The position numbers and the translations under genes were made by a program. This document shows positions 8,546 to 49,683 of a stretch of 64,000 nucleotides of DNA, piece by piece. Positions within the stretch are counted from its first letter, which is position 1; each line of letters opens with the position of its first letter. This DNA is from Escherichia phage vB_EcoM_JNE01. The notes beneath the pieces are model-generated. The model searched no databases. It saw only the letters and a list, made by a program, of their open reading frames with translations, and was not told the origin of the DNA. Where the stretch lies: sequence record OR670491. One strand, 5' to 3'.

Positions 8546-9310
8546 TTAATCCTTTAATATTATGTTAAAATTATCATAAAAGTACCTTTTTAGTACTGAG
8601 ATATGATCCTCATTGTATTTTATACGAAGCAAGTTAATATCATGTTCAGTACAGTACGCGTTTTTAATTTTATCATTGTGTTGAGTTTGTTTTAGTGATT
8701 CATCTCCACCCCAATGTTCTGAACATTGAAAATGCTGTTCACCATCATATTCAATACACAAATTCAAATCTTCAATATAAAAATCAAATGGTAAAGTGAA
8801 TACGTTTCGACAATCAGAAAAACGCTTTTCTTTTACATACTTCATAAAAGATAACATTTTTTCTATATCTGTTACAGCTTTTGATTGAGTTGATTCCATC
8901 ATACACTGCTCACAACCATGCCTACTAGCCAAATGATTATCAGGTCTTTGTAAAAATGACCCATGTATGGGGCATATTATGGATATATGTGTTTTGTTGT
9001 TAATATACTCCGCAGTATTGTAATCAAATTTGTTTTTAAACTTCAAATTAGCTTTTTCACGAAAATTTATAAAGTTTTTTGGACTTTTTTGACGGTTTGC
9101 ATTATATTCTTTTGAACATTTCATGCAACCTTTACCACTAGTATGATCGTTTGGTCTTTGAAGAAAAAAACCATGCTTTTCACACCCAATCCATACCTTT
9201 GTTTTTGCATTATGGTATTTAACCATACTATAATCATATCTAATTCCATGAACTCGTATTGCATTGGTCACAAATTTGTCTTTCGTTGATCTTGTGGTTG
9301 CATATTTCAT
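8546..9310 (-). CDS. Free-standing homing-endonuclease-like protein: two Zn-ribbon modules plus Vsr/DUF559-like PD-(D/E)xK nuclease domain
   Basis: Repeated C-x-x-H-G-x-F-x(7-9)-H-x(4-5)-G-C-x-x-C modules (CEKHGFF...GCMKC; CPIHGSF...GCEQC); C-terminal FDFYIED...IEYDGEQH motif typical of DUF559/Vsr-like endonuclease fold; inserted between gp25-like and gp6-like genes. Confidence 0.5.
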   Translation of the reverse strand: MKYATTRSTKDKFVTNAIRVHGIRYDYSMVKYHNAKTKVWIGCEKHGFFLQRPNDHTSGKGCMKCSKEYNANRQKSPKNFINFREKANLKFKNKFDYNTAEYINNKTHISIICPIHGSFLQRPDNHLASRHGCEQCMMESTQSKAVTDIEKMLSFMKYVKEKRFSDCRNVFTLPFDFYIEDLNLCIEYDGEQHFQCSEHWGGDESLKQTQHNDKIKNAYCTEHDINLLRIKYNEDHISVLKRYFYDNFNIILKD

Positions 9311-9354
9311 ATATCACTCCATGAATTATATAGAAATATTTATCCAAAAAGAAA

Positions 9355-28643: not shown

Positions 28644-28674
28644 CAATAAATAAAAGAAAGAAGGAGATCATTAT

Positions 28675-29295
28675 ATGAGTATGATTCGTGAATGGTCTTC
28701 ATTCAATGATTCTAATATTGTTCTGGAACATCGTGATAACGGATTTGGCGGTCGTGATTGCTACCTACGTGGTATTGCAATTCAGGCCGACCAAAGAAAC
28801 TTGAACGAGAGAATTTACCCTTTATCTGAAATTACGAAGGCCGTAAATAATATGGGTCAACGTTTAGCTAAAGGGGAAAGCATTCTAGTAGAATGTGACC
28901 ATCCAGAAACATTAACCATTAACCTAGACCGTGTAGCTGCAATGATTACCAAAGTCTGGATGGAAGGTGCTAATGGTATGGCAGAAATCAAATTGCTTGA
29001 TACTGCTCATGGTCAAAATATTCGTAAAATGCTAGAGGCTGGCGTAAAACTTGGTGTCAGTTCACGCGGTTCCGGTAACGTAGATTATAATGGAATAGTT
29101 TCTGATTTTGAAATTATCACTATCGATATTGTTGCTCAACCTAGTGCTCCAGAGGCATACCCAACTGCGGTATTTGAATCTCTAATGAGCAAGTACGGAT
29201 CACCTTGTAATAGTCCTAAAAAAATCAATGAATCTAAAACAGTAAATAATGTAGATTCTGAAATTTACGATTTTTTCAAGAAATTAAAAGGTTAA
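28675..29295 (+). CDS. Prohead core protease, T4 gp21-like
   Basis: LNERIYPLSE, GESILVECDHPE, VWMEGANGMAEIKLLDT, GVKLGVSSRGSGN closely parallel T4 gp21 motifs. Confidence 0.85.
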   Translation: MSMIREWSSFNDSNIVLEHRDNGFGGRDCYLRGIAIQADQRNLNERIYPLSEITKAVNNMGQRLAKGESILVECDHPETLTINLDRVAAMITKVWMEGANGMAEIKLLDTAHGQNIRKMLEAGVKLGVSSRGSGNVDYNGIVSDFEIITIDIVAQPSAPEAYPTAVFESLMSKYGSPCNSPKKINESKTVNNVDSEIYDFFKKLKG

Positions 29296-29311
29296 CATTT
29301 TAAAAATATAA

Positions 29312-29337
29312 ATATCTGTATGTTGAAGTACAGATAT
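29312..29337 (+). promoter_or_regulatory. Perfect 9-bp stem hairpin between protease and scaffold genes (attenuator/processing candidate)
   Basis: ATATCTGTA-tgttgaag-TACAGATAT; weak T-run after. Confidence 0.35.
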
Positions 29338-29362
29338 TTCAGTACTTAAAGGAGAGAACAGG

Positions 29363-30478
29363 ATGTCTAAATTAGAAAAGCTTCTAAAAGAATCATCACT
29401 TTCTGATGAGGCAAAACAGCTAATTCAGGAAGCATGGAATGAAGAAAAGAATACACTTGCCGCAGAAATGCGTGAAGAAATGAAAGGTCGATACAAACAA
29501 GATTTGTCCGAGCTAACCGAAGGTCTAAATACTATGGTTACTCAAGTTATCGCTGAAGAAATGGGTGCAGTATATGATGAGAAAAAACGTCTTGTAGAAG
29601 ACCGTGTAACTCTTCGTAAAACCCTAGGTAATTTCTCTCAGTTCGCAAACTCTGTATTGGCTGAAGAAGTCAAACAACTACGTAAAGAACGTAAACATCT
29701 AAGAGAAAGTATGAGCAAATTTGTTAATTTCTCAAACGGTATCTTAGCTGAAGAACTAAAAGAATTCCACGTGGAAAAACGTCAACTAGTAGAAACTCGC
29801 GTTAAACTACTTGCTGAAGGTTCCCGTCAAATTGCTGAAGCACGTAACAACTTCATCAAACGTACCTCTGAAAGTGCTGCTAAATACATTGCAGAAACAA
29901 CTCAGAAGAACCTATACGCTTTGAAACAAGATCTTGTTGAAGCAAAACAAAATATGTTTGGTCGTAAAATTTTCGAAGCATTTGCTCAAGAATTCCATAT
30001 CAAACAATTTAACGAGAATTCACTTCTACGTTCCCTAACTGAATCAGTTAAGTCTAAAGAAGACGAAATTGCTCAAGTTAAATCTGAACTAAATGAATCT
30101 GTTGCTGCTGTTAAAGCTGCGAAAACCAAACTCCGTATTATGGAAGATACTCAAACCCGTAATGCAATTATGTCCGAGTTGGTGAAGCCACTAAATACTC
30201 AGCAAAAACAAATTATGGAATCCCTTCTAGCTACTTCTCCTACAGAAAAGCTTAAAGACGATTTCAGCAAGTACCATAAGTCAGTACTTAACGGTACTAA
30301 AGTAAATGAATCTGCTACCTCTCGTCAAGCAGTTCAGTCTTCAGCTAAGAAAACTCTTGCCGAAGGTAAAGTAATCACTGGCAACCGTCAGGCTATTGTT
30401 GAAAGCGAAGAAATGACCGCTGACGATATGGCATTCCTAAAAGAACTCGATGTTCTTTCTGGTATCAATAAAAAATAA
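29363..30478 (+). CDS. Scaffolding (prohead core) protein, gp22-like
   Basis: Coiled-coil-rich, charged 371-aa protein between protease and major capsid genes. Confidence 0.6.
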   Translation: MSKLEKLLKESSLSDEAKQLIQEAWNEEKNTLAAEMREEMKGRYKQDLSELTEGLNTMVTQVIAEEMGAVYDEKKRLVEDRVTLRKTLGNFSQFANSVLAEEVKQLRKERKHLRESMSKFVNFSNGILAEELKEFHVEKRQLVETRVKLLAEGSRQIAEARNNFIKRTSESAAKYIAETTQKNLYALKQDLVEAKQNMFGRKIFEAFAQEFHIKQFNENSLLRSLTESVKSKEDEIAQVKSELNESVAAVKAAKTKLRIMEDTQTRNAIMSELVKPLNTQQKQIMESLLATSPTEKLKDDFSKYHKSVLNGTKVNESATSRQAVQSSAKKTLAEGKVITGNRQAIVESEEMTADDMAFLKELDVLSGINKK

Positions 30479-30516
30479 ACATTTTAAAGCATTTTAATAA
30501 TCAATCTTTTCAGTTC

Positions 30517-30524
30517 TATAAATA
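30517..30524 (+). promoter_or_regulatory. T4-type late promoter TATAAATA upstream of major capsid gene
   Basis: CTATAAATAATATCATACTG about 45 nt upstream of ATG 30570. Confidence 0.55.
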
Positions 30525-30569
30525 ATATCATACTGAAAAACGAATATAACATCTTTAAGGAGATATACA

Positions 30570-31745
30570 ATGTCACAACTACTAAATGAATCCAAATGGG
30601 TAGCAGTTAAAGAGAAACTAGTTGAAGGTCTACAAGGTACTCGTAAGTCCGTAATGGAAACCGTACTTGATAACCATCGTAAACTAATGCTTAACGAATC
30701 TGCTACTTCTGGTGCAACCACCGCTGGTAACATCGCTACTCTAAACAAAGTGATTCTACCAATTATGCGTCGTGTAATGCCTACCGTAATCGCTAACGAA
30801 ATCATCGGTGTTCAGCCAATGACTGGCCCAGTTGGTCAGATCCACACCCTACGTGTTCAATATGCTGACAACGCTCCTGGTGTTATCGCTGGTGAAGAAA
30901 TGCTTTCTCCATACAAAATCGCTAAAGCGTATTCTGGTGAACTAAACGCTGACAACAGCAACCCACAAGCTGCTCCTACTAGCCAACTAGAAGGTACTAT
31001 GGGTCGTCGCGTTAACATCCGTATCCTACGTGAAACTGTTGAAGCGAAATCTCGTCGTCTATCTGCACGTTGGACTGTTGAATCTGCACAAGATGCTCAA
31101 TCCCAACATGGTATCGATGTTGAAGCTGAACTAATGGCTGCTATCGCTCAAGAAGTTACCGTTGAAATCGACCAAGAGCTACTAAGCCGTCTACGTGCAC
31201 TACCTGGTGCTGCTGCTGTAACTTATGACCAATCTAAAGTTACTGGTGTTGCTACCTTCGTTGGTGACGAACACGCCGCTCTAGCTACTCTAATCAACCG
31301 TCAAGCGAACGAAGTTGCTCGTCGTACCAAACGTGGTGCTGCGAACTGGGCTGTTGTTTCTCCAACCGCTCTAACCATTCTACAGTCTGCAACTACTTCT
31401 AGTTTTGCACGTACTACTGAAGGTACTTTCGAAGCTCCAACTAACGTTAAATTTGTTGGTACTCTAAACAGTACTATGCGTATTTTTGTAGACACTTACG
31501 CCAGCGATGTCGAGGACATTTTGATTGGTTATAAAGGTAATGCAGAAACTGATGCTGGTGTATTCTACTGCCCATACATCCCACTAATGGCATCTGGTAC
31601 TGTAATGGACCCTAACACTGGAGAACTCGTTACGACCTTCTTGACACGTTATGGTTACGTTCAACTAACTGACTCAACCAGTTCTTTAGGTAATGCTGCG
31701 GATTACTACAGCAAAATCGCTATCAAAAACGTTACTTTCATGTAA
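30570..31745 (+). CDS. Major capsid protein, T4 gp23-like (compact form)
   Basis: IIGVQPMTGPVGQIHTLRVQY, VEAKSRRLSARWTVESAQD, GYKGNAETDAGVFYCPYIPL parallel T4 gp23 segments; strong RBS AAGGAG. Confidence 0.9.
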   Translation: MSQLLNESKWVAVKEKLVEGLQGTRKSVMETVLDNHRKLMLNESATSGATTAGNIATLNKVILPIMRRVMPTVIANEIIGVQPMTGPVGQIHTLRVQYADNAPGVIAGEEMLSPYKIAKAYSGELNADNSNPQAAPTSQLEGTMGRRVNIRILRETVEAKSRRLSARWTVESAQDAQSQHGIDVEAELMAAIAQEVTVEIDQELLSRLRALPGAAAVTYDQSKVTGVATFVGDEHAALATLINRQANEVARRTKRGAANWAVVSPTALTILQSATTSSFARTTEGTFEAPTNVKFVGTLNSTMRIFVDTYASDVEDILIGYKGNAETDAGVFYCPYIPLMASGTVMDPNTGELVTTFLTRYGYVQLTDSTSSLGNAADYYSKIAIKNVTFM

Positions 31746-31789
31746 TTGTAAACGATTTAAAAGATTTAATCAAGAATTTAAAAACAATA

Positions 31790-31816
31790 GGGACTCTTCG
31801 GAGTCCCTTTTCTTTT
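31790..31816 (+). terminator. Rho-independent terminator after major capsid gene
   Basis: GGGACTC-TTCG-GAGTCCC followed by TTTTCTTTT. Confidence 0.75.
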
Positions 31817-31889
31817 GTAAATACACTTGCACTACATACGTAATCGTGATATTATATTTTTATGGTAAACACAAGGATTTTCTTAAATT

Positions 31890-32888
31890 ATGGCTAGTAA
31901 ATTTAATGAACAATATTATGTTGATAAAATTGAAGGTATCATCAAACGTAATAACTTGAACATGAAATTCATAAAAATCATAAACTTCAAAAATGCTAAA
32001 AGTAATTTTTGTTATACATGTTGGGATTGTAAGTCTTCAGTACTGGAAACTAATATAGATAATTTTTCAACCCGCAAAAAATGTCAACACTGTGGTATTA
32101 TGAAACAACAGCACGGTACTAGTGTTCCAAAAACTGAAAGTCAATATAGACATGAATGTTTAAAACGTATTAAGCAAGAGAAAAAACCGTGGGAATATAT
32201 TAAAACCATTAGCTATAATGACAAGAAAAACTCTAGAGTGGAATTCCACTGTAAAAAGCATGAGCGTAATTTCATTGTTACATTTGATGATTTCTTGGGT
32301 AACAAAAGTGGTTGCGTGGACTGTGGAATAGAACGCACTAGTGAGTCCAAAAGAAAAGACCTCAAAACAATGAAATCCCAGTTGATAGGAATTCATGGTG
32401 AAAAGTACACCTATGATGATTTTCAATATGATGAAAGTTATGATTATCACAGTACTGAATGTGTATTTGGATGTCCCATACACAAAGACGTGAAGATTTA
32501 TAAAACTGTACCAAACTTTAGAAAAACTGATAGAGAACATTGTCCTGTGTGCAACGAACGTGAAGGAACAATGCGTGAACCATCAACACTATACGTCCAA
32601 CGTATAACACACCCAAGTAAAGGTGTATTTTATAAGTTAGGTGTAACTAACGATATAAGCCGTAGGATTAGTCAACAAAAACATTATGCAAACACTGAAC
32701 ATGAAGTATTGTTGATTGAAGATTTTGAAACTCGTAGAGAAGCACAAGACTTAGAACAGAAAATAAAAGGTACTATAACTAACAAGGTAGTTGATAAAGA
32801 AGATTTCCCTGATGGATACACTGAAACTTTCAATGAATCTGATTTAGACTTAGTACTATCCATGATTAAAGAATGGAAAGCTATGTAA
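31890..32888 (+). CDS. Homing-endonuclease-like protein: three Zn-ribbon modules plus C-terminal T5orf172/GIY-YIG-like domain
   Basis: Zn-ribbon modules like those in 8546-9310 gene (FHCKKHE...GCVDCG; CPIHKD...HCPVCN); C-terminal LYVQRI...GVFYKLGVTNDISRR...EHEVLLIEDF pattern of T5orf172 (GIY-YIG-like) domain. Confidence 0.5.
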   Translation: MASKFNEQYYVDKIEGIIKRNNLNMKFIKIINFKNAKSNFCYTCWDCKSSVLETNIDNFSTRKKCQHCGIMKQQHGTSVPKTESQYRHECLKRIKQEKKPWEYIKTISYNDKKNSRVEFHCKKHERNFIVTFDDFLGNKSGCVDCGIERTSESKRKDLKTMKSQLIGIHGEKYTYDDFQYDESYDYHSTECVFGCPIHKDVKIYKTVPNFRKTDREHCPVCNEREGTMREPSTLYVQRITHPSKGVFYKLGVTNDISRRISQQKHYANTEHEVLLIEDFETRREAQDLEQKIKGTITNKVVDKEDFPDGYTETFNESDLDLVLSMIKEWKAM

Positions 32889-32912
32889 CTAAACTAAAAG
32901 GAGTTGACAAGG

Positions 32913-33263
32913 ATGTTAACTGTATACTTATTTCGCAAAGAAGAGTACTTAATGAGTCAGTACTCAAACATTGAGATTAATGTTCCATACGGCACGTATG
33001 TTGCTTATGATGAAGAAAGTGAAACATTGCATTACTATGATGACAAATTAGATTATAGTACTGAAAAGTTTATTGAAGATGTACTAACCTGTAGTACTGA
33101 AGAAATGGTGTATGAAATCTATCTCCAGAAGTACAGAGAACGTATGTCCAAGGTACATGCAGACGCACCAGTACTGAACATTAACCAGACTCCCTCCGAA
33201 TTCCAACCTTCCAACCCATTCCAGCGTTTAATAGATGCTGGGGTAAATTTCCGAATTAGTTAG
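32913..33263 (+). CDS. Hypothetical protein
   Basis: ORF with RBS AAAGGAG upstream of ATG 32913 (track uses TTG at 32904). Confidence 0.45.
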   Translation: MLTVYLFRKEEYLMSQYSNIEINVPYGTYVAYDEESETLHYYDDKLDYSTEKFIEDVLTCSTEEMVYEIYLQKYRERMSKVHADAPVLNINQTPSEFQPSNPFQRLIDAGVNFRIS

Positions 33264-33301
33264 ATGATAAATATCTTCATAATAAAATGGAGATATTTTC
33301 T

Positions 33302-33610
33302 ATGTCACAAATATGTTATGTAATAACTAATGCTGCTTGGCCTGAGTATGTAAAGATTGGATTTACATCCAAATCAGAGATGACAGAAAGATTACGAACA
33401 TACCAAACTGCGACCCCATTCCGTGATTTTGAAGTGTATCATGAGGTTAAGTTCCCTGATGCTAGGGTTGCAGAGAAAGAGATTCATAAAAGACTAAAGC
33501 AGATGAATGCGACACGTCAGCCTAATACTGAGTGGTTCAAGATGCCTAAGAAGCTGGCAGCTAATATAGTTGACTCTGTACTTGACGATATGGAGAACGA
33601 TTTACTTTAG
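33302..33610 (+). CDS. Stand-alone T5orf172/GIY-YIG-like domain protein
   Basis: CYVITNAAWPEYVKIGFTSKS...RLRTY...FEVYHEV...EKEIHKRLK...EWFKM matches T5orf172 pattern; RBS GGAG. Confidence 0.5.
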   Translation: MSQICYVITNAAWPEYVKIGFTSKSEMTERLRTYQTATPFRDFEVYHEVKFPDARVAEKEIHKRLKQMNATRQPNTEWFKMPKKLAANIVDSVLDDMENDLL

Positions 33611-33650
33611 TAATAAATATAGTATATATTAATCATAAAGGGATTTATAC

Positions 33651-35324
33651 ATGAGCATAAGTTTTAATAACCCATTAGATACTATGACCAGTACTGGTGG
33701 TAACGGGTCATTGGAACTAATAGTGCTTGGTGGTACACCAACTAACCCAAGACCTATCCGTTTCAATTCATCATCAGTCATCATTCCAGTACAGACTTTA
33801 CCAGCGGGTGAAGCGGGTGCATTAGTATTTGACCGAGCGGAAGCAGTACTGAAATATCATAACGGTACTAGCTGGATTGCAGTATATGACACTGATACAA
33901 TTCTTGAACCAATTCGTTTATCTTTAGAAGAAGTAAACAGAAAATTAAATTTAAAAGTAGAAACTGTTTCTTATAGTAGTGGTTCTGTGCCGACTGCAAG
34001 TATCAGTGGTACTAACCTGAATATCGTATTCCCACTTCCTTCATCTTCTGGTGGTACTGGTCCAACTGGTCTATACACTTCAATGAAGCCTGGGGCAATT
34101 ACACAATATTCCTTGACTTCTGGACAATCTGTTAGTAGTATACGTGAACAGATGTCGGGTACTAGCGGTGGACAGAGTGGTAGAAACGGTACACAGAGTT
34201 CACCTTGGAAAACTTCCGATGGTTGGTGTTTTGCTGACGGAATGTGGTGGACATGGGCTGGTGATAGTGGTACAGTAACCAAACAAGTACCGAACCTTAA
34301 CCAGAACGCTTACTTGAAAGGTATGACCACAAGTGGTGTAACCAAAACTGATTCAACTATCAGTGGTAGTGGTTCTATCAGCAGTACTACATTGTCTATT
34401 GCACAGATACCTGCGATGCAATTTAGTTTTAGTGGAACAACTGGTGGTGGTGGTCGTCACAGTCATAGTCAAGCACTAAAAGGTATGGATAGAAGCGGTC
34501 TGAACGCATTGACATCAAGTAATGATAATGGTATACCTACAGTCATTAGTAACATTAACGAAGCTCCTGACCACGTTCACAGCTTCAGTGGTGTGACAAA
34601 CTGGCAAGGTGGTGGTCAAGGCCATACTCATGGACTTTCAGGTGTTGACGTAGACCACTTTAATGTGGCATACTTATACAACATTGCAGAATCCAACGTA
34701 GCATTAAGTGAAACAGTAGCTAACACTCGTTATGTACTGAAAACTGGTGATACAATGTCTGGTGCGTTGTCTATTGCGAACAGTGTTACAGTTCGTTCTA
34801 ATGATACATCATTAGTGTTCTATTTTAGAAATACTTCTGGTGGGGAACGTGCCGCAATTTATCATAGTTCTTCAAACAACACACTACGTTTAAGAAGTGC
34901 AGGTGGTACAGAAGTTTCTATCAACACAAGTGGTGGTTTATCTGCATCATCTCTATCAGCATCTTCTGCTACTATTAGTGGAACAGCAACAGCTAACGCA
35001 GTTTCATCTGCATCATTAACTGTATCTGGTCAATCTGCTGTAGTCGGTGGTAAAAACGTTGTTCGTTCAATCAACAACACGACTGCTGATAGTAATGGTA
35101 ACGTTACATTGACACTAGGTTCTGTGCAGGGTTTCCGTTTGGGTGCTAGAGTACAAAGTGGTAAACTATCAGCATCATCATGGAACTATGCACCAGATGG
35201 ATCAGTATTAGATGGTATATGGTTATCAGGTAATGGTAGTACTGGTACACACGTGGACAACTTTAGTTATCGCCAAATGGAAGTTCTCGTTAATGGAGTT
35301 TGGAAAATGGTAGATGTACTATAA
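33651..35324 (+). CDS. Tail fibre protein with His-x-His metal-binding motifs
   Basis: Ser/Thr/Gly-rich beta-type sequence; HxH motifs (RHSHSQ, DHVHSF, GHTHGL) as in T4 gp37/gp12 fibre tips; followed by chaperone-like gene. Confidence 0.6.
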   Translation: MSISFNNPLDTMTSTGGNGSLELIVLGGTPTNPRPIRFNSSSVIIPVQTLPAGEAGALVFDRAEAVLKYHNGTSWIAVYDTDTILEPIRLSLEEVNRKLNLKVETVSYSSGSVPTASISGTNLNIVFPLPSSSGGTGPTGLYTSMKPGAITQYSLTSGQSVSSIREQMSGTSGGQSGRNGTQSSPWKTSDGWCFADGMWWTWAGDSGTVTKQVPNLNQNAYLKGMTTSGVTKTDSTISGSGSISSTTLSIAQIPAMQFSFSGTTGGGGRHSHSQALKGMDRSGLNALTSSNDNGIPTVISNINEAPDHVHSFSGVTNWQGGGQGHTHGLSGVDVDHFNVAYLYNIAESNVALSETVANTRYVLKTGDTMSGALSIANSVTVRSNDTSLVFYFRNTSGGERAAIYHSSSNNTLRLRSAGGTEVSINTSGGLSASSLSASSATISGTATANAVSSASLTVSGQSAVVGGKNVVRSINNTTADSNGNVTLTLGSVQGFRLGARVQSGKLSASSWNYAPDGSVLDGIWLSGNGSTGTHVDNFSYRQMEVLVNGVWKMVDVL

Positions 35325-35839
35325 TGATGAACTTAAAAAACTTTAAGAAGTATAAAAAGTACTCTGAGCCTGATGGGTTCTTATATTTGATATGTGATGA
35401 GGGCATCGATTGGTATGATGCCCGACCATTATTTCAGAAAGACAGTACTAAATTTATGTATGACTCGAAAACTGGTATTATTGTATCAGCGTCACGTGAC
35501 GTAAATGATATAACACCAATGAATTTCTGTGTTTCTGAAGTTGAATATAACGGTGACGTGAATAACTTGTATGGTATGGTTTTTGATGGAGTAAACATAT
35601 CTCCTTATATAGAAACTGAACAGGAACGTGTATCAAGAATAAAAAATGAGTTGACACATATCAAACGAAGTGTTATCATTGAAATGAATCATCTTAAAAT
35701 GACAATTGACTGTGGAGTTGCAACTGATGATGAAATTAAACAGTTTGAAAAATTTCAGAGTTATGTAGTCGAGTTGTCAAAAATCACTGATGATGAAATT
35801 TTGAATGAATCATTCGTGATTCCACATAAACCTGAATAA
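35324..35839 (+). CDS. Tail fibre assembly chaperone candidate
   Basis: About 170-aa protein immediately downstream of, and overlapping, the fibre gene; assignment by context only. Confidence 0.35.
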   Translation: MMNLKNFKKYKKYSEPDGFLYLICDEGIDWYDARPLFQKDSTKFMYDSKTGIIVSASRDVNDITPMNFCVSEVEYNGDVNNLYGMVFDGVNISPYIETEQERVSRIKNELTHIKRSVIIEMNHLKMTIDCGVATDDEIKQFEKFQSYVVELSKITDDEILNESFVIPHKPE

Positions 35840-43359: not shown

Positions 43360-43465
43360 TTCTGGGACAGCAGCTAAAGATGTGCTACAATTATTAACGA
43401 AATACAAAGAAAACGGAGATTTCATATGCATTACCATTAAACATAAATGGCGACCTGAATGGTAA

Positions 43466-49683
<6,218 letters not shown>

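What the first reader, a model, noticed from the sequence alone, without database searches (positions are those of the whole stretch)
31890..33610. Cluster of T5orf172/GIY-YIG-like genes between capsid and tail-fibre genes
Two genes carrying the T5orf172-type motif (one fused to three Zn ribbons, one stand-alone) plus a small unknown ORF sit directly after the capsid-gene terminator. This looks like a hot spot for selfish-element insertion and may mark a mosaic boundary, since a tail fibre follows immediately.
Basis: partly seen in the sequence, partly recalled or inferred. Interest (0 to 1): 0.45.

Follow-up and report, generated by a model that had tools for sequence, protein, structure and literature searches.

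The report
Homing-endonuclease hot spot after capsid gene
Right after the capsid gene of this giant E. coli phage sits a selfish nuclease gene in a slot that related phages fill with other such genes or leave empty, while its two neighbours, one a small stand-alone nuclease, are conserved resident genes; this is a clear example of a known phenomenon.

Summary
The window is Escherichia jumbo phage vB_EcoM_JNE01, a relative of 121Q and PBECO4. After the capsid-gene terminator (31789-31816) lie three genes, followed by a tail-fibre gene:
- ORF1 (31890-32888): three Cys/His zinc modules plus a C-terminal T5orf172 domain.
- ORF2 (32913-33263): unknown function.
- ORF3 (33302-33610): a stand-alone T5orf172/GIY-YIG domain.

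Only ORF1 behaves as a selfish element. It is best read as a free-standing T5orf172-family homing endonuclease gene. It sits in a 1.1-kb cassette (31817-32912) whose position is highly variable among relatives: empty, a remnant, about six diverged T5orf172 types, or an unrelated nuclease-like gene. Contigs with an identical capsid protein carry four different occupants. The nearest relative, Turkey5, is about 99% identical across 64 kb but holds a different gene there (22% amino-acid identity).

ORF2 and ORF3 are resident genes under purifying selection. ORF3 occurs once in 62 of 72 related phage records and is as conserved as the DNA polymerase. It is probably a fixed nuclease of unknown role.

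The tail-fibre mosaic break (34942-35837) is a separate event. Overall this is a new member of a known kind (Barth et al. 2023). Cleavage and homing are untested.

The parts
30570..31745 (+). Major capsid protein gene (T4 gp23-like), the left anchor of the slot. In Turkey5-type cassettes its last ~40 nt are recoded.
   Evidence: Pfam Gp23 4e-90 and PHROG 138. The window/Turkey5 breakpoint lies at 31704-31708. Turkey5 carries 7 synonymous changes in 31709-31724.
31789..31816 (+). Intrinsic-terminator-like hairpin (GGGACTCTTCGGAGTCCC) plus T run that ends the capsid transcription unit. It is the left edge of the variable cassette.
   Evidence: Terminator scan. It is conserved in relatives, and the SHEFM2K/PBECO4 identity ends exactly after the T run.
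31817..32912 (+). Variable cassette: promoter-like element, ORF1 and a 22-nt right end. It corresponds to the segment that is replaced or absent in relatives.
   Evidence: There is no Turkey5 or PBECO4 alignment for 31825-32890 and 31817-32897 respectively. In PBECO4 47 nt stand where SHEFM2K has a 1090-nt cassette. Slot lengths range from 110 to 1921 nt.
31827..31855 (+). Candidate sigma-70-type promoter with an extended -10 (TTGCAC, 17 nt, TGATATTAT). This is inferred only.
   Evidence: Read from the sequence. The consensus scan did not call it. Other cassette types carry much better matches at the same place, for example TTGACA-17-TATAAT in A4 and L024.
31890..32888 (+). ORF1 (WOL22789.1, 332 aa): putative free-standing homing endonuclease of the T5orf172 family.
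   Evidence: Pfam T5orf172 1.2e-5, PHROG 681 2e-40. tblastn matches the ICP1 'tcgB putative homing endonuclease' at 4e-12. dN/dS is 0.12-0.21 against other 332-aa alleles, with no stop codons.
32010..32093 (+). Zinc module 1 of ORF1 (aa 41-68; C41/C44/C47...C65, C68).
   Evidence: Motif scan.
32250..32324 (+). Zinc module 2 of ORF1 (aa 121-145; C121, H124...C142, C145). This is the most variable part of the protein (51-72% aa identity among 332-aa alleles).
   Evidence: Marginal Pfam DUF723 hit at aa 114-146 (E 0.048).
32460..32552 (+). Zinc module 3 of ORF1 (aa 191-221; C195, H198...C218, C221).
32574..32885 (+). T5orf172 (GIY-YIG clan) nuclease domain of ORF1 (aa 229-332). The motif residues Y235, Y248-K249-x-G251, R259, E289 and G309-x-T-E312-T are invariant among the T5orf172 proteins at this position in the relatives compared.
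   Evidence: Pfam hit at aa 235-329. Invariant columns of alignment A4.
32891..32912 (+). Right end of the cassette (AACTAAAAGGAGTTGACAAGG), which carries the ORF2 ribosome-binding site. Unrelated cassette types share it; empty-site phages have a different sequence here.
   Evidence: Junction comparison.
32913..33263 (+). ORF2 (WOL22790.1, 116 aa): conserved resident gene of unknown function, restricted to this clade.
   Evidence: PHROG 15724 7e-47 and no Pfam hit. Orthologues found in all relatives examined, including RaK2 at 49% identity. dN/dS 0.12-0.20. Only 20 clusters in 1.84 billion representative proteins. The AF2 model has pLDDT 67 and gives only weak SH3-like hits.
33302..33610 (+). 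ORF3 (WOL22791.1, 102 aa; alternative start 33287): stand-alone T5orf172/GIY-YIG-fold domain, fixed in the clade.
33651..35324 (+). Tail-fibre gene, the right-hand context. Its C-terminal part and the chaperone gene (34942-35837) form a separate mosaic block relative to Turkey5.
   Evidence: PHROG 13229 4e-234. Unaligned block reported.

Best explanation
The region holds two different kinds of gene.

(1) ORF1 is most likely a free-standing homing endonuclease gene (HEG) of the T5orf172 family. It has three zinc-finger DNA-binding modules and a C-terminal GIY-YIG-clan nuclease domain. It is carried on a ~1.1-kb cassette that probably has its own early-type promoter. The cassette is wedged between the capsid-gene terminator and the start codon of ORF2.

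Inferred mechanism: in a mixed infection the enzyme cuts a sequence in or near this intergenic site in a co-infecting relative that lacks this cassette. Recombinational repair then copies the cassette across, using the conserved capsid gene and ORF2 as homology arms. Repeated invasions by different nucleases (HEG turnover) have made this position a hyper-variable slot.

(2) ORF2 and ORF3 are not part of the mobile unit. They are resident genes that are kept in place, possibly expressed with or just after the cassette. ORF3 is a 102-aa stand-alone T5orf172 nuclease domain with all motif residues intact. It was probably acquired once from a mobile ancestor and then fixed, because it does something useful for the phage. 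That role is unknown; host or competitor DNA cleavage and DNA-structure processing are possibilities.

Shown: domain content, polymorphism, junctions, selection.
Inferred: cleavage, homing, expression timing and any role of ORF3.
For: Domains:
- ORF1 and ORF3 both hit Pfam T5orf172 and matching PHROGs.
- ORF1 has three Cys/His modules.
- ORF1 relatives include ICP1 genes annotated 'tcgB putative homing endonuclease', plus genes in T4-like, Aeromonas and RaK2 phages.
- This architecture, its closeness to capsid genes and its position at exchange boundaries were described by Barth et al. 2023 (PMC10448857).

Polymorphism at the slot:
- Empty in PBECO4, fEgEco12, Erwinia pEa19 and Yersinia Yen9-03.
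- A 77-aa remnant in GAP32.
- T5orf172 genes of 304, 307, 332, 365, 368 and 406 aa that share only 21-37% identity between types.
- A non-T5orf172 DUF7487 protein in ph0011.
- Contigs encoding an identical 391-aa capsid protein carry four different occupants.

Junctions:
- The window is about 99% identical to Turkey5 over 64 kb, but the cassette is unrelated. The breakpoints are 31704-31708 and about 32890.
- SHEFM2K equals PBECO4 (99.96% and 99.4% identical flanks), except that 47 nt are replaced by a 1090-nt cassette.
- In 121Q versus PBECO4, mismatches pile up within ~300 nt to the left and ~550 nt to the right of the slot, as co-conversion tracts would.

Selection:
- ORF1 is intact and under purifying selection, with dN/dS 0.12-0.21.
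- ORF3 has one copy in 62 of 72 related records.
- ORF3 is 69-100% identical across the genera sampled, while only 36-49% of its conserved-residue codons are unchanged relative to six relatives.
- ORF3 is 88.8% identical to its PBECO4 orthologue, against 88.3% for the DNA polymerase.
- The ORF3 model has a GIY-YIG fold, and its motif residues are invariant.

Virion proteomics:
- ORF1-3 homologues are not marked as detected in the Kae01 virion LC-MS/MS, whereas the capsid and tail-fibre proteins are.
Against: - No cleavage site, cleavage activity or biased inheritance has been shown for any of these proteins.
- To my knowledge, among T5orf172 proteins nuclease activity has been demonstrated experimentally only for the ICP1 protein Odn. 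I did not check this in the paper (PMC8263062).
- For the 332-aa allele itself, the one clean comparison (SHEFM2K versus PBECO4) shows no co-conversion tract. The capsid 3' end and terminator next to it are identical to those of empty-site phages, so its target cannot be read from the sequence.
- The promoter upstream of ORF1 is weak by the consensus scan.
- ORF3 is absent from RaK2, where an unrelated gene takes its place, so it is not universally required.
Confidence: 0.75

Rival explanations
1. ORF1 is not an actively homing element. It is a domesticated sequence-specific nuclease or repressor that the phage uses against competitors or satellites, as with ICP1 Odn or the satellite protein CapR. 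On this reading the diversity at the slot reflects an arms race rather than homing.
For: T5orf172 and zinc-finger modules have been co-opted in this way in the ICP1/PLE system. The central zinc module of ORF1 is the fastest-changing part (51-72% aa identity). The gene is itself mosaic relative to L016, which fits specificity switching. ORF1 is under purifying selection.
Against: Near-identical phages differ by clean presence or absence of the cassette. Flanking mismatches cluster as in co-conversion tracts. An unrelated nuclease-like gene (DUF7487) occupies the same slot. Turkey5-type cassettes bring a recoded capsid 3' end. These are the marks of mobile elements competing for one site. The two readings are not exclusive, because homing endonucleases also cause marker exclusion.
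Confidence: 0.12
2. All three genes (ORF1-ORF3) form one selfish island inserted between the capsid and tail-fibre genes.
For: Two of the three carry the T5orf172 domain and all sit between two late structural genes. None of the three homologues is marked as detected in the Kae01 virion mass spectrometry. In RaK2 the ORF3 position holds an unrelated gene, so that position has changed at least once.
Against: ORF2 and ORF3 are present in the same order in every phage examined from Asteriusvirus, Mimasvirus and Eneladusvirus, and in the unclassified Kae01 and PHA46, whether or not the slot is occupied. ORF3 occurs in 62 of 72 records, one copy each. Both are under purifying selection. The variable segment ends exactly at the ORF2 start codon.
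Confidence: 0.04
3. ORF3 is the decaying remnant of an old homing endonuclease that lost its DNA-binding part and has no function.
For: It is only the nuclease domain, with no DNA-binding module. Its nearest non-orthologous relatives are small T5orf172 genes in T5-like phages, some of them annotated as putative homing endonucleases. A true remnant exists at the neighbouring slot in GAP32.
Against: Length is kept at 100-109 aa in 36 clusters. About 20 columns, including all motif residues, are invariant. The protein is 89-91% identical within Asteriusvirus, while only 36-49% of conserved-residue codons are unchanged. It is as conserved as the DNA polymerase. A decaying remnant would not behave this way.
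Confidence: 0.05
4. ORF2 and ORF3 work together as a two-part nuclease, with ORF2 as the targeting subunit and ORF3 as the catalytic subunit. Their own cutting near their locus could be what makes the neighbouring position recombination-prone.
For: They are always adjacent and co-oriented, 25-40 nt apart, in all phages examined outside RaK2. Erwinia, Yersinia and GAP32 phages have a TGGTATAAT extended -10 element just upstream of ORF2 that could drive both. SLX1, the best structural match to ORF3 among characterised GIY-YIG nucleases, is solved in complex with a partner, Slx4.
Against: RaK2 keeps ORF2 (49% identity) but has an unrelated 244-aa gene in place of ORF3. PHA46 keeps ORF3 while ORF2 is annotated as two short pieces. 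ORF2 evolves much faster than ORF3 (72% versus 89% identity to PBECO4). The ORF2 model shows no recognisable DNA-binding fold. No interaction test was possible.
Confidence: 0.06

Closest known systems
T5orf172-family homing endonuclease genes of Vibrio phage ICP1 and other phages (Barth, Dunham & Seed 2023, NAR Genom Bioinform, PMC10448857)
   Same: ORF1 has a C-terminal T5orf172 nuclease domain and N-terminal repeated zinc-finger DNA-binding modules of the CapR/DUF723/DUF4379 type. It is free-standing, lies next to an essential structural gene (31% of their gene neighbourhoods held a capsid gene), and sits at a boundary of genetic exchange. It shows domain shuffling inside the gene and turnover at one locus. 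ORF1 matches ICP1 'tcgB' at 24% identity over 83% of its length, E 4e-12.
   Different: The host clade is different (350-kb RaK2-like coliphages). I found no mention of this slot or these phages in that paper (no occurrence of 121Q, PBECO4, Asteriusvirus or jumbo). Pfam recognises the zinc modules in ORF1 itself only marginally. Nothing here has been tested experimentally.
Seg-type free-standing GIY-YIG homing endonucleases of phage T4 (SegA-G) and I-TevI
   Same: They belong to the same nuclease superfamily (GIY-YIG clan). They are intergenic, free-standing genes whose spread leaves co-conversion tracts in flanking genes and causes marker exclusion between related phages (my own knowledge; SegE and SegG are cited in PMC10448857). 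The clustering of mismatches around the slot in 121Q versus PBECO4 looks like such tracts.
Small stand-alone GIY-YIG proteins: SLX1/HIGLE catalytic domain, bacterial UPF0213 (YhbQ-like), T4 endonuclease II (DenA)
   Different: There is no detectable sequence similarity to any solved structure. ORF3 belongs to the T5orf172 branch, and its nearest non-orthologous relatives are small genes in T5-like phages (40% identity). No partner or substrate is known.
Domesticated relatives: ICP1 Odn and the satellite repressor CapR
   Same: They show that T5orf172 nuclease domains and their zinc-finger modules can be fixed and reused for phage or satellite functions. That is the kind of history proposed here for ORF3.
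   Different: Odn keeps a DNA-binding domain (RepA_N) and CapR keeps only the zinc fingers. ORF3 keeps only the nuclease domain.

Membership tests
T5orf172-family free-standing homing endonuclease gene (ORF1) | T5orf172 (GIY-YIG clan) nuclease domain | tested here: met
   Pfam PF10544 at aa 235-329, E 1.2e-5, 26.2 bits against a cut-off of 20. PHROG 681 'endonuclease' 2e-40.
T5orf172-family free-standing homing endonuclease gene (ORF1) | Catalytic-motif residues intact (Tyr of GIY, Tyr/Gly of YIG, Arg, Glu) | tested here: met
   Y235, Y248-K249-x-G251, R259, E289 and E312 are invariant among seven proteins at this position that share as little as 27% identity. Their equivalence to I-TevI residues is inferred from motif spacing, not from a structure.
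T5orf172-family free-standing homing endonuclease gene (ORF1) | Repeated zinc-finger DNA-binding modules (CapR/DUF723/DUF4379) | tested here: inconclusive
   Three C-x2-C/H...C-x2-C modules are present. BLASTP to the 121Q protein spans them (27% identity over 332 aa, 1.5e-26). Homologues hit CapR, DUF723 and DUF4379 above threshold. In ORF1 itself Pfam gives only DUF723 at E 0.048, below the cut-off. No structure was predicted.
T5orf172-family free-standing homing endonuclease gene (ORF1) | Presence/absence or replacement polymorphism at one site between otherwise near-identical genomes | tested here: met
   Window versus Turkey5 (about 99% identical, cassette unrelated). SHEFM2K versus PBECO4 (99.96% and 99.4% identical flanks, 47 nt versus 1090 nt). 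Four different occupants beside an identical capsid protein.
T5orf172-family free-standing homing endonuclease gene (ORF1) | Co-conversion of flanking markers | tested here: inconclusive
   Seen for the 365-aa type: 121Q versus PBECO4 mismatches cluster within ~300 nt to the left and ~550 nt to the right. Seen for the 406-aa type: a recoded capsid 3' end. Not seen for the 332-aa type in the one clean comparison.
T5orf172-family free-standing homing endonuclease gene (ORF1) | Site-specific cleavage of the allele lacking the gene, and biased inheritance in crosses | not testable with these tools
   Needs enzyme assays and phage crosses.
GIY-YIG nuclease superfamily (ORF3) | GIY-YIG alpha/beta fold | tested here: met
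GIY-YIG nuclease superfamily (ORF3) | Motif residues conserved | tested here: met
   Y6, K18, G20, T22, R30, Y34, E58 and E77 are invariant and N88 nearly so across 33 sequences down to 40% identity.
Homing endonuclease gene (ORF3) | Sporadic distribution among close relatives | tested here: not met
   One copy in all 62 non-Klebsiella and Kae01 records that share the capsid gene. It is missing from 10 Klebsiella records; the one whose locus I read, RaK2 (Alcyoneusvirus), has a different gene at that position.
Homing endonuclease gene (ORF3) | DNA-binding domain that gives site specificity | tested here: not met
   The protein is 102 aa and the T5orf172 hit covers aa 9-97 of the 107-aa version. 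All orthologues are 100-109 aa.
PADLOC defence candidate PDC-S57 (ORF3) | Full-length match to the ~212-aa model | tested here: not met
   Only model positions 5-92 of 212 match (E 9e-17). This is the shared nuclease domain.

The most novel reading that the evidence does not exclude
ORF3 would be a homing-endonuclease nuclease domain that lost its DNA-binding part and was domesticated at least as early as the common ancestor of the ORF3-bearing genera examined here (Asteriusvirus, Mimasvirus, Eneladusvirus). It would now be a core enzyme of these 350-kb phages, for example for host or competitor DNA cleavage or for processing recombination intermediates. Its position beside the hyper-variable slot would then not be a coincidence: its own activity, alone or with ORF2, could keep this position recombination-prone.
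Probability: 0.15. Interest if true: 0.55.

Novelty: new member of a known kind. Interest (0 to 1): 0.35.

Why it matters
The general rule is already published: T5orf172 nuclease genes sit beside essential phage genes and mark exchange boundaries. This locus therefore adds an example, not a principle.

Its value is as a clean natural test system:
- One intergenic position has two sharply defined edges (a terminator and a start codon).
- At least eight different states are seen among sequenced relatives.
- Four different occupants sit beside an identical capsid protein.
- Matched pairs of phages differ almost only by the cassette (SHEFM2K and PBECO4; JNE01 and Turkey5).

That makes homing, target-site recoding and endonuclease turnover directly measurable in culturable coliphages.

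In practical terms, ORF1-3 are 'hypothetical protein' in the GenBank record of this phage, and ORF3 is sometimes mislabelled 'homing endonuclease' in relatives. This work shows which gene is mobile and which are resident.

The conserved stand-alone nuclease ORF3 is an uncharacterised protein as well conserved as the DNA polymerase, and is worth a knockout.

Tried and rejected
- Step in divergence at the slot. Against 121Q-type phages the capsid side is 87-98% identical and the ORF2 side 66-85%. I first read this as a recombination boundary. Whole-window comparison with PBECO4 showed a genome background of about 80%, with only the protease-scaffold-capsid block (28650-31800) elevated. The step may simply be the end of a slow-evolving block, so I dropped it as evidence.
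- Extreme ORF3 pS values. The Nei-Gojobori pS of 0.79-0.94 looked like deliberate recoding. Direct codon counting gave 36-49% identical codons at conserved residues, which is ordinary saturation.
- ORF1 nuclease domain as a local duplicate of ORF3. An ORF3-family HMM does not find ORF1 at E<10, and the profile-profile match is weak (E 0.008, probability 5%). They are separate branches of T5orf172.
- Sequence search of ORF3 against solved structures. It returned only a chance hit.
- T4-type late promoter motif TATAAATA. It is not enriched in the window (6 found, 6.9 expected). It does occur just upstream of the scaffold and capsid genes and not before ORF1-3. This is suggestive only.
- Structure of ORF1.
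Full report
**Identity of the window.** The proteins encoded at 30570-35324 are exact matches to WOL22788-WOL22792 of Escherichia phage vB_EcoM_JNE01, where ORF1-3 are annotated 'hypothetical protein'. Megablast places the phage among the ~350-kb RaK2-like jumbo phages. The closest sequenced genome is Escherichia phage Turkey5, followed by the Asteriusvirus phages 121Q and PBECO4.

**Check of the observation.**
- The + strand carries, in order: head protease (28675-29295), scaffold (29363-30478), gp23-type major capsid protein (30570-31745; Pfam Gp23 4e-90), ORF1 (31890-32888), ORF2, ORF3, tail fibre (33651-35324; PHROG 13229 4e-234), tail-fibre chaperone, a 99-aa gene and the DNA polymerase.
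- A terminator-like hairpin with a T run lies at 31789-31816.
- ORF1 has a C-terminal T5orf172 domain (Pfam 1.2e-5, above the curated cut-off; PHROG 681 'endonuclease' 2e-40). It also has three Cys/His zinc modules at aa 41-68, 121-145 and 195-221.
- ORF3 is little more than a T5orf172 domain (Pfam 5e-14).
- Two starts need correcting. ORF2 begins at the ATG at 32913 (116 aa). ORF3 most likely begins at 33302 (102 aa). Both agree with every annotated orthologue.

**Only ORF1 is variable.** I fetched the capsid-to-polymerase region from 15 relatives. The gene order capsid, [slot], ORF2, ORF3, tail fibre, chaperone, small gene, polymerase holds in Asteriusvirus, in Mimasvirus (GAP32), in Eneladusvirus (Erwinia and Yersinia phages) and in Klebsiella phage Kae01 and Salmonella phage PHA46. 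The stretch between the capsid stop codon and the ORF2 start codon ranges from 110 to 1921 nt. Its states are:
- Empty in PBECO4, fEgEco12, pEa_SNUABM_19 and fHe-Yen9-03.
- A 77-aa C-terminal remnant of a T5orf172 gene in GAP32.
- T5orf172 genes of 304 aa (Kae01), 307 aa (G17), 332 aa (this window, SHEFM2K, TH47), 365/368 aa (121Q, A4) and 406 aa (Turkey5). These share only 21-37% identity between types.
- In ph0011, a 532-aa protein with no T5orf172 domain (Pfam DUF7487, 1e-13).
- RaK2 also has a 408-aa gene of this family directly after its capsid gene.
- From the coordinates, the distance from the capsid end to the ORF3 start falls into at least nine size classes among the 62 records that carry ORF3.

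**The polymorphism is recent and has sharp edges.**
- Metagenomic and genomic contigs that encode a capsid protein identical in all 391 residues carry four different occupants. These are 332 aa; 376/379 aa plus an extra 207-aa ORF; 406 aa; and 362 aa.
- Across the whole 64-kb window, JNE01 and Turkey5 are about 99% identical. Only four blocks do not align, and the ORF1 cassette (31825-32890) is one of them.
- Site-by-site comparison puts the left breakpoint at 31704-31708, about 40 nt before the capsid stop. The right breakpoint is about 22 nt before the ORF2 start.
- SHEFM2K and PBECO4 are 99.96% identical over 2817 nt on the left and 99.4% over 3469 nt on the right. They differ by replacement of 47 nt with a 1090-nt cassette. 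The edges are the last T of the terminator and the ORF2 ATG.
- In 121Q versus PBECO4, 35 of 45 left-flank mismatches lie within the last ~300 nt before the slot. About 50 of 73 right-flank mismatches lie within the first ~550 nt after it. This is the pattern expected from co-conversion during double-strand-break repair.
- Turkey5-type cassettes carry a capsid 3' end with seven synonymous changes in 16 nt, including an AGC-to-TCT serine switch. That is what a recoded, self-protected target site would look like. This reading is an inference.
- Each cassette type brings a sigma-70-like promoter just after the terminator. It is a perfect TTGACA-17-TATAAT in A4 and L024, and a weaker extended -10 version in the window at 31827-31855, which the consensus scan did not call.

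**ORF1 is intact and itself mosaic.**
- Against four other 332-aa alleles it has no stop codons and dN/dS of 0.12-0.21.
- Relative to contig L016, the first zinc module and the nuclease domain are nearly identical (pS 0.06-0.09). Zinc modules 2 and 3 are strongly diverged (pS about 0.56).
- Module 2 is the most variable part in all comparisons (51-72% aa identity).
- This matches the modular exchange of DNA-binding repeats described for this family.
- The exact ORF1 protein is on 2 contigs in the 15-billion-protein collection, against 32 for the capsid protein, 15 for ORF2 and 25 for ORF3.
- The motif residues Y235, Y248-K249-x-G251, R259, E289 and E312 are invariant among the T5orf172 proteins compared from this position.

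**ORF2 and ORF3 are resident genes.**
- ORF3 orthologues (E <= 1e-25) occur once each in 62 phage records. The host-genus counts equal those of the 72 records sharing the capsid gene, except that 10 Klebsiella records lack ORF3.
- In RaK2 (Alcyoneusvirus), the only one of those Klebsiella records whose locus I read, an unrelated 244-aa gene stands in its place, while ORF2 is kept at 49% identity.
- ORF3 is 69-100% identical across the genera sampled and 100-109 aa long in 36 protein clusters.
- Only 36-49% of its conserved-residue codons are unchanged relative to six relatives, against 79% for the capsid gene compared with PBECO4. Its synonymous sites are therefore saturated while the protein is held.
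- Against PBECO4 it is 88.8% identical. That is the 63rd percentile of 51 window genes and equal to the DNA polymerase at 88.3%. ORF2, at 71.7%, is in the 16th percentile.
- Y6, K18, G20, R30, Y34, E58 and E77 are invariant.
- ORF3 is a different branch of T5orf172 from the ORF1 domain. Its nearest non-orthologous relatives are small genes of T5-like phages (40% identity).
- It matches only the N-terminal domain of the PADLOC candidate PDC-S57.
- ORF2 has no recognisable family or fold. Only 20 relatives were found among 1.84 billion representative proteins, all small and stand-alone.
- Homologues of ORF1-3 are not flagged in the Kae01 virion LC-MS/MS annotation, although the capsid and tail-fibre proteins are. 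In phAPEC6 no protein numbered between gp215c and the capsid protein gp225c was detected. That second result is weak negative evidence.

**The mosaic-boundary claim.**
- The slot is a breakpoint at cassette level.
- The second break near it (34942-35837, tail-fibre C-terminus plus chaperone) is separated from the slot by ORF2, ORF3 and the tail-fibre N-terminal part, which are 94-100% identical to Turkey5. It is an independent host-range-type swap.
- The sharp fall in identity to more distant Asteriusviruses at the slot is not reliable evidence of exchange. Genome-wide identity to PBECO4 is about 80%, and only the protease-scaffold-capsid block stands out at 86-98%.

**Mechanism.**
- Shown: a nuclease-domain gene with zinc-finger repeats; sharp cassette junctions; replacement polymorphism among near-identical genomes; clustered flank divergence in some lineages; purifying selection.
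- Inferred: ORF1 is transcribed from its own promoter. Its zinc modules recognise a site in or next to the capsid-ORF2 interval of phages lacking this cassette. The T5orf172 domain cuts that site. Repair from the cassette-bearing genome then copies the cassette, with the conserved capsid gene and ORF2 acting as homology arms. Successive invasions by enzymes of different specificity replace one another.
- Caveat for the 332-aa type: the adjacent capsid 3' end and terminator are identical to those of empty-site phages. The target either spans the insertion point, and so is destroyed by insertion, or lies in ORF2, or is unknown.
- ORF3 is best explained as a once-mobile nuclease domain that became fixed. 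Its role is open.

**Comparison with what is known.** The architecture, the preference for capsid neighbourhoods, the position at exchange boundaries, the domain shuffling and the idea of turnover are all in Barth, Dunham & Seed 2023. None of my search terms for these phages (121Q, PBECO4, Asteriusvirus, jumbo) occurs in that paper. The one jumbo-phage paper I read for this, on phage CBB, lists only HNH endonucleases and the terminase intein as selfish elements and has no occurrence of T5orf172 or GIY-YIG. ORF1 is therefore a new member of a known kind. The conserved stand-alone ORF3 is uncharacterised but not a new category.

**Score.** Interest is 0.35. The locus is a well-defined and experimentally attractive example, but not a surprise to a specialist.

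Noticed in passing
window 8546-9310 (- strand): A second homing-endonuclease-like gene (254 aa) lies between a 1153-aa baseplate wedge gene and the gp25-like gene. It has two zinc modules of the same kind as ORF1 (Pfam DUF723 3e-6, DUF4379 2e-4; HMM built from the capsid-slot proteins 6e-22). Its C-terminus is different and looks like a Vsr or restriction-endonuclease type ('FDFYIEDLNLCIEYDGEQHF'; weak DUF2726 hit). The block 8556-9322 is absent from both Turkey5 and PBECO4.
   Followed up: partly
window 45936-46953, inside the large terminase gene 45670-48330: An in-frame ~339-aa insertion carries LAGLIDADG and Hom_end domains, beginning ...GK|ALANN and ending ...THN|T. It is an intein with a homing endonuclease. 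It is absent from Turkey5 and PBECO4. Terminase inteins were reported before for RaK2 and K64-1.
   Followed up: partly
window 34942-35837: The tail-fibre C-terminal part and the tail-fibre assembly chaperone do not align with Turkey5, which has a shorter, different segment. This is the only one of the four non-homologous blocks between the two phages that is not a selfish nuclease element, and it is probably a host-range swap.
   Followed up: partly
L017 6959-7582 (also L018, L019, L022, L023): One cassette type at the capsid slot carries a second gene of 207 aa. It overlaps the stop codon of a 376/379-aa T5orf172 gene, and its only Pfam hit is a weak one to chloramphenicol acetyltransferase (E 3e-3). 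It may be cargo of the cassette.
   Followed up: no
L015 2889-4487 (phage ph0011; UE-S1 has a slot of the same length): Here the capsid slot holds a 532-aa protein with no T5orf172 domain. It hits Pfam DUF7487 (1e-13) and, weakly, REase_MTES_1575. So unrelated nuclease-like genes compete for the same position.
   Followed up: partly
window 31709-31724 compared with L002 (Turkey5) and L020: Turkey5-type cassettes come with seven synonymous changes in 16 nt at the capsid 3' end and a different terminator loop. All other phages share the common sequence. This may be a recoded target site of the 406-aa enzyme.
   Followed up: partly
L006 3256-3489 (GAP32): A 77-aa ORF equals the C-terminal part of a T5orf172 gene of this family (47% identity to ORF1 aa 279-329). 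It is a decayed remnant in the same slot.
   Followed up: partly
L012 5869-6124 (Salmonella phage PHA46): The ORF2 orthologue is annotated as two short ORFs (31 and 55 aa), while ORF3 is intact. ORF2 may be disrupted in this phage, or there may be a sequencing error.
   Followed up: no
window 28650-31800: The protease-scaffold-capsid block is 86-98% identical to PBECO4 against a genome background of about 80%. This could reflect slow evolution of these genes or a more recent exchange that ends at the slot. I could not tell which.
   Followed up: partly
L007 and L008 just upstream of the ORF2 orthologue; also L006: In Erwinia, Yersinia and Cronobacter phages a TGGTATAAT extended -10 element lies about 20 nt before the ORF2 start. 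This suggests that ORF2 and ORF3 are transcribed by host-type polymerase, separately from the flanking late structural genes.
   Followed up: no
window 43430-43443: At this point Turkey5 has about 195 nt that the window lacks (a shift in alignment offset). I did not examine it.
   Followed up: no
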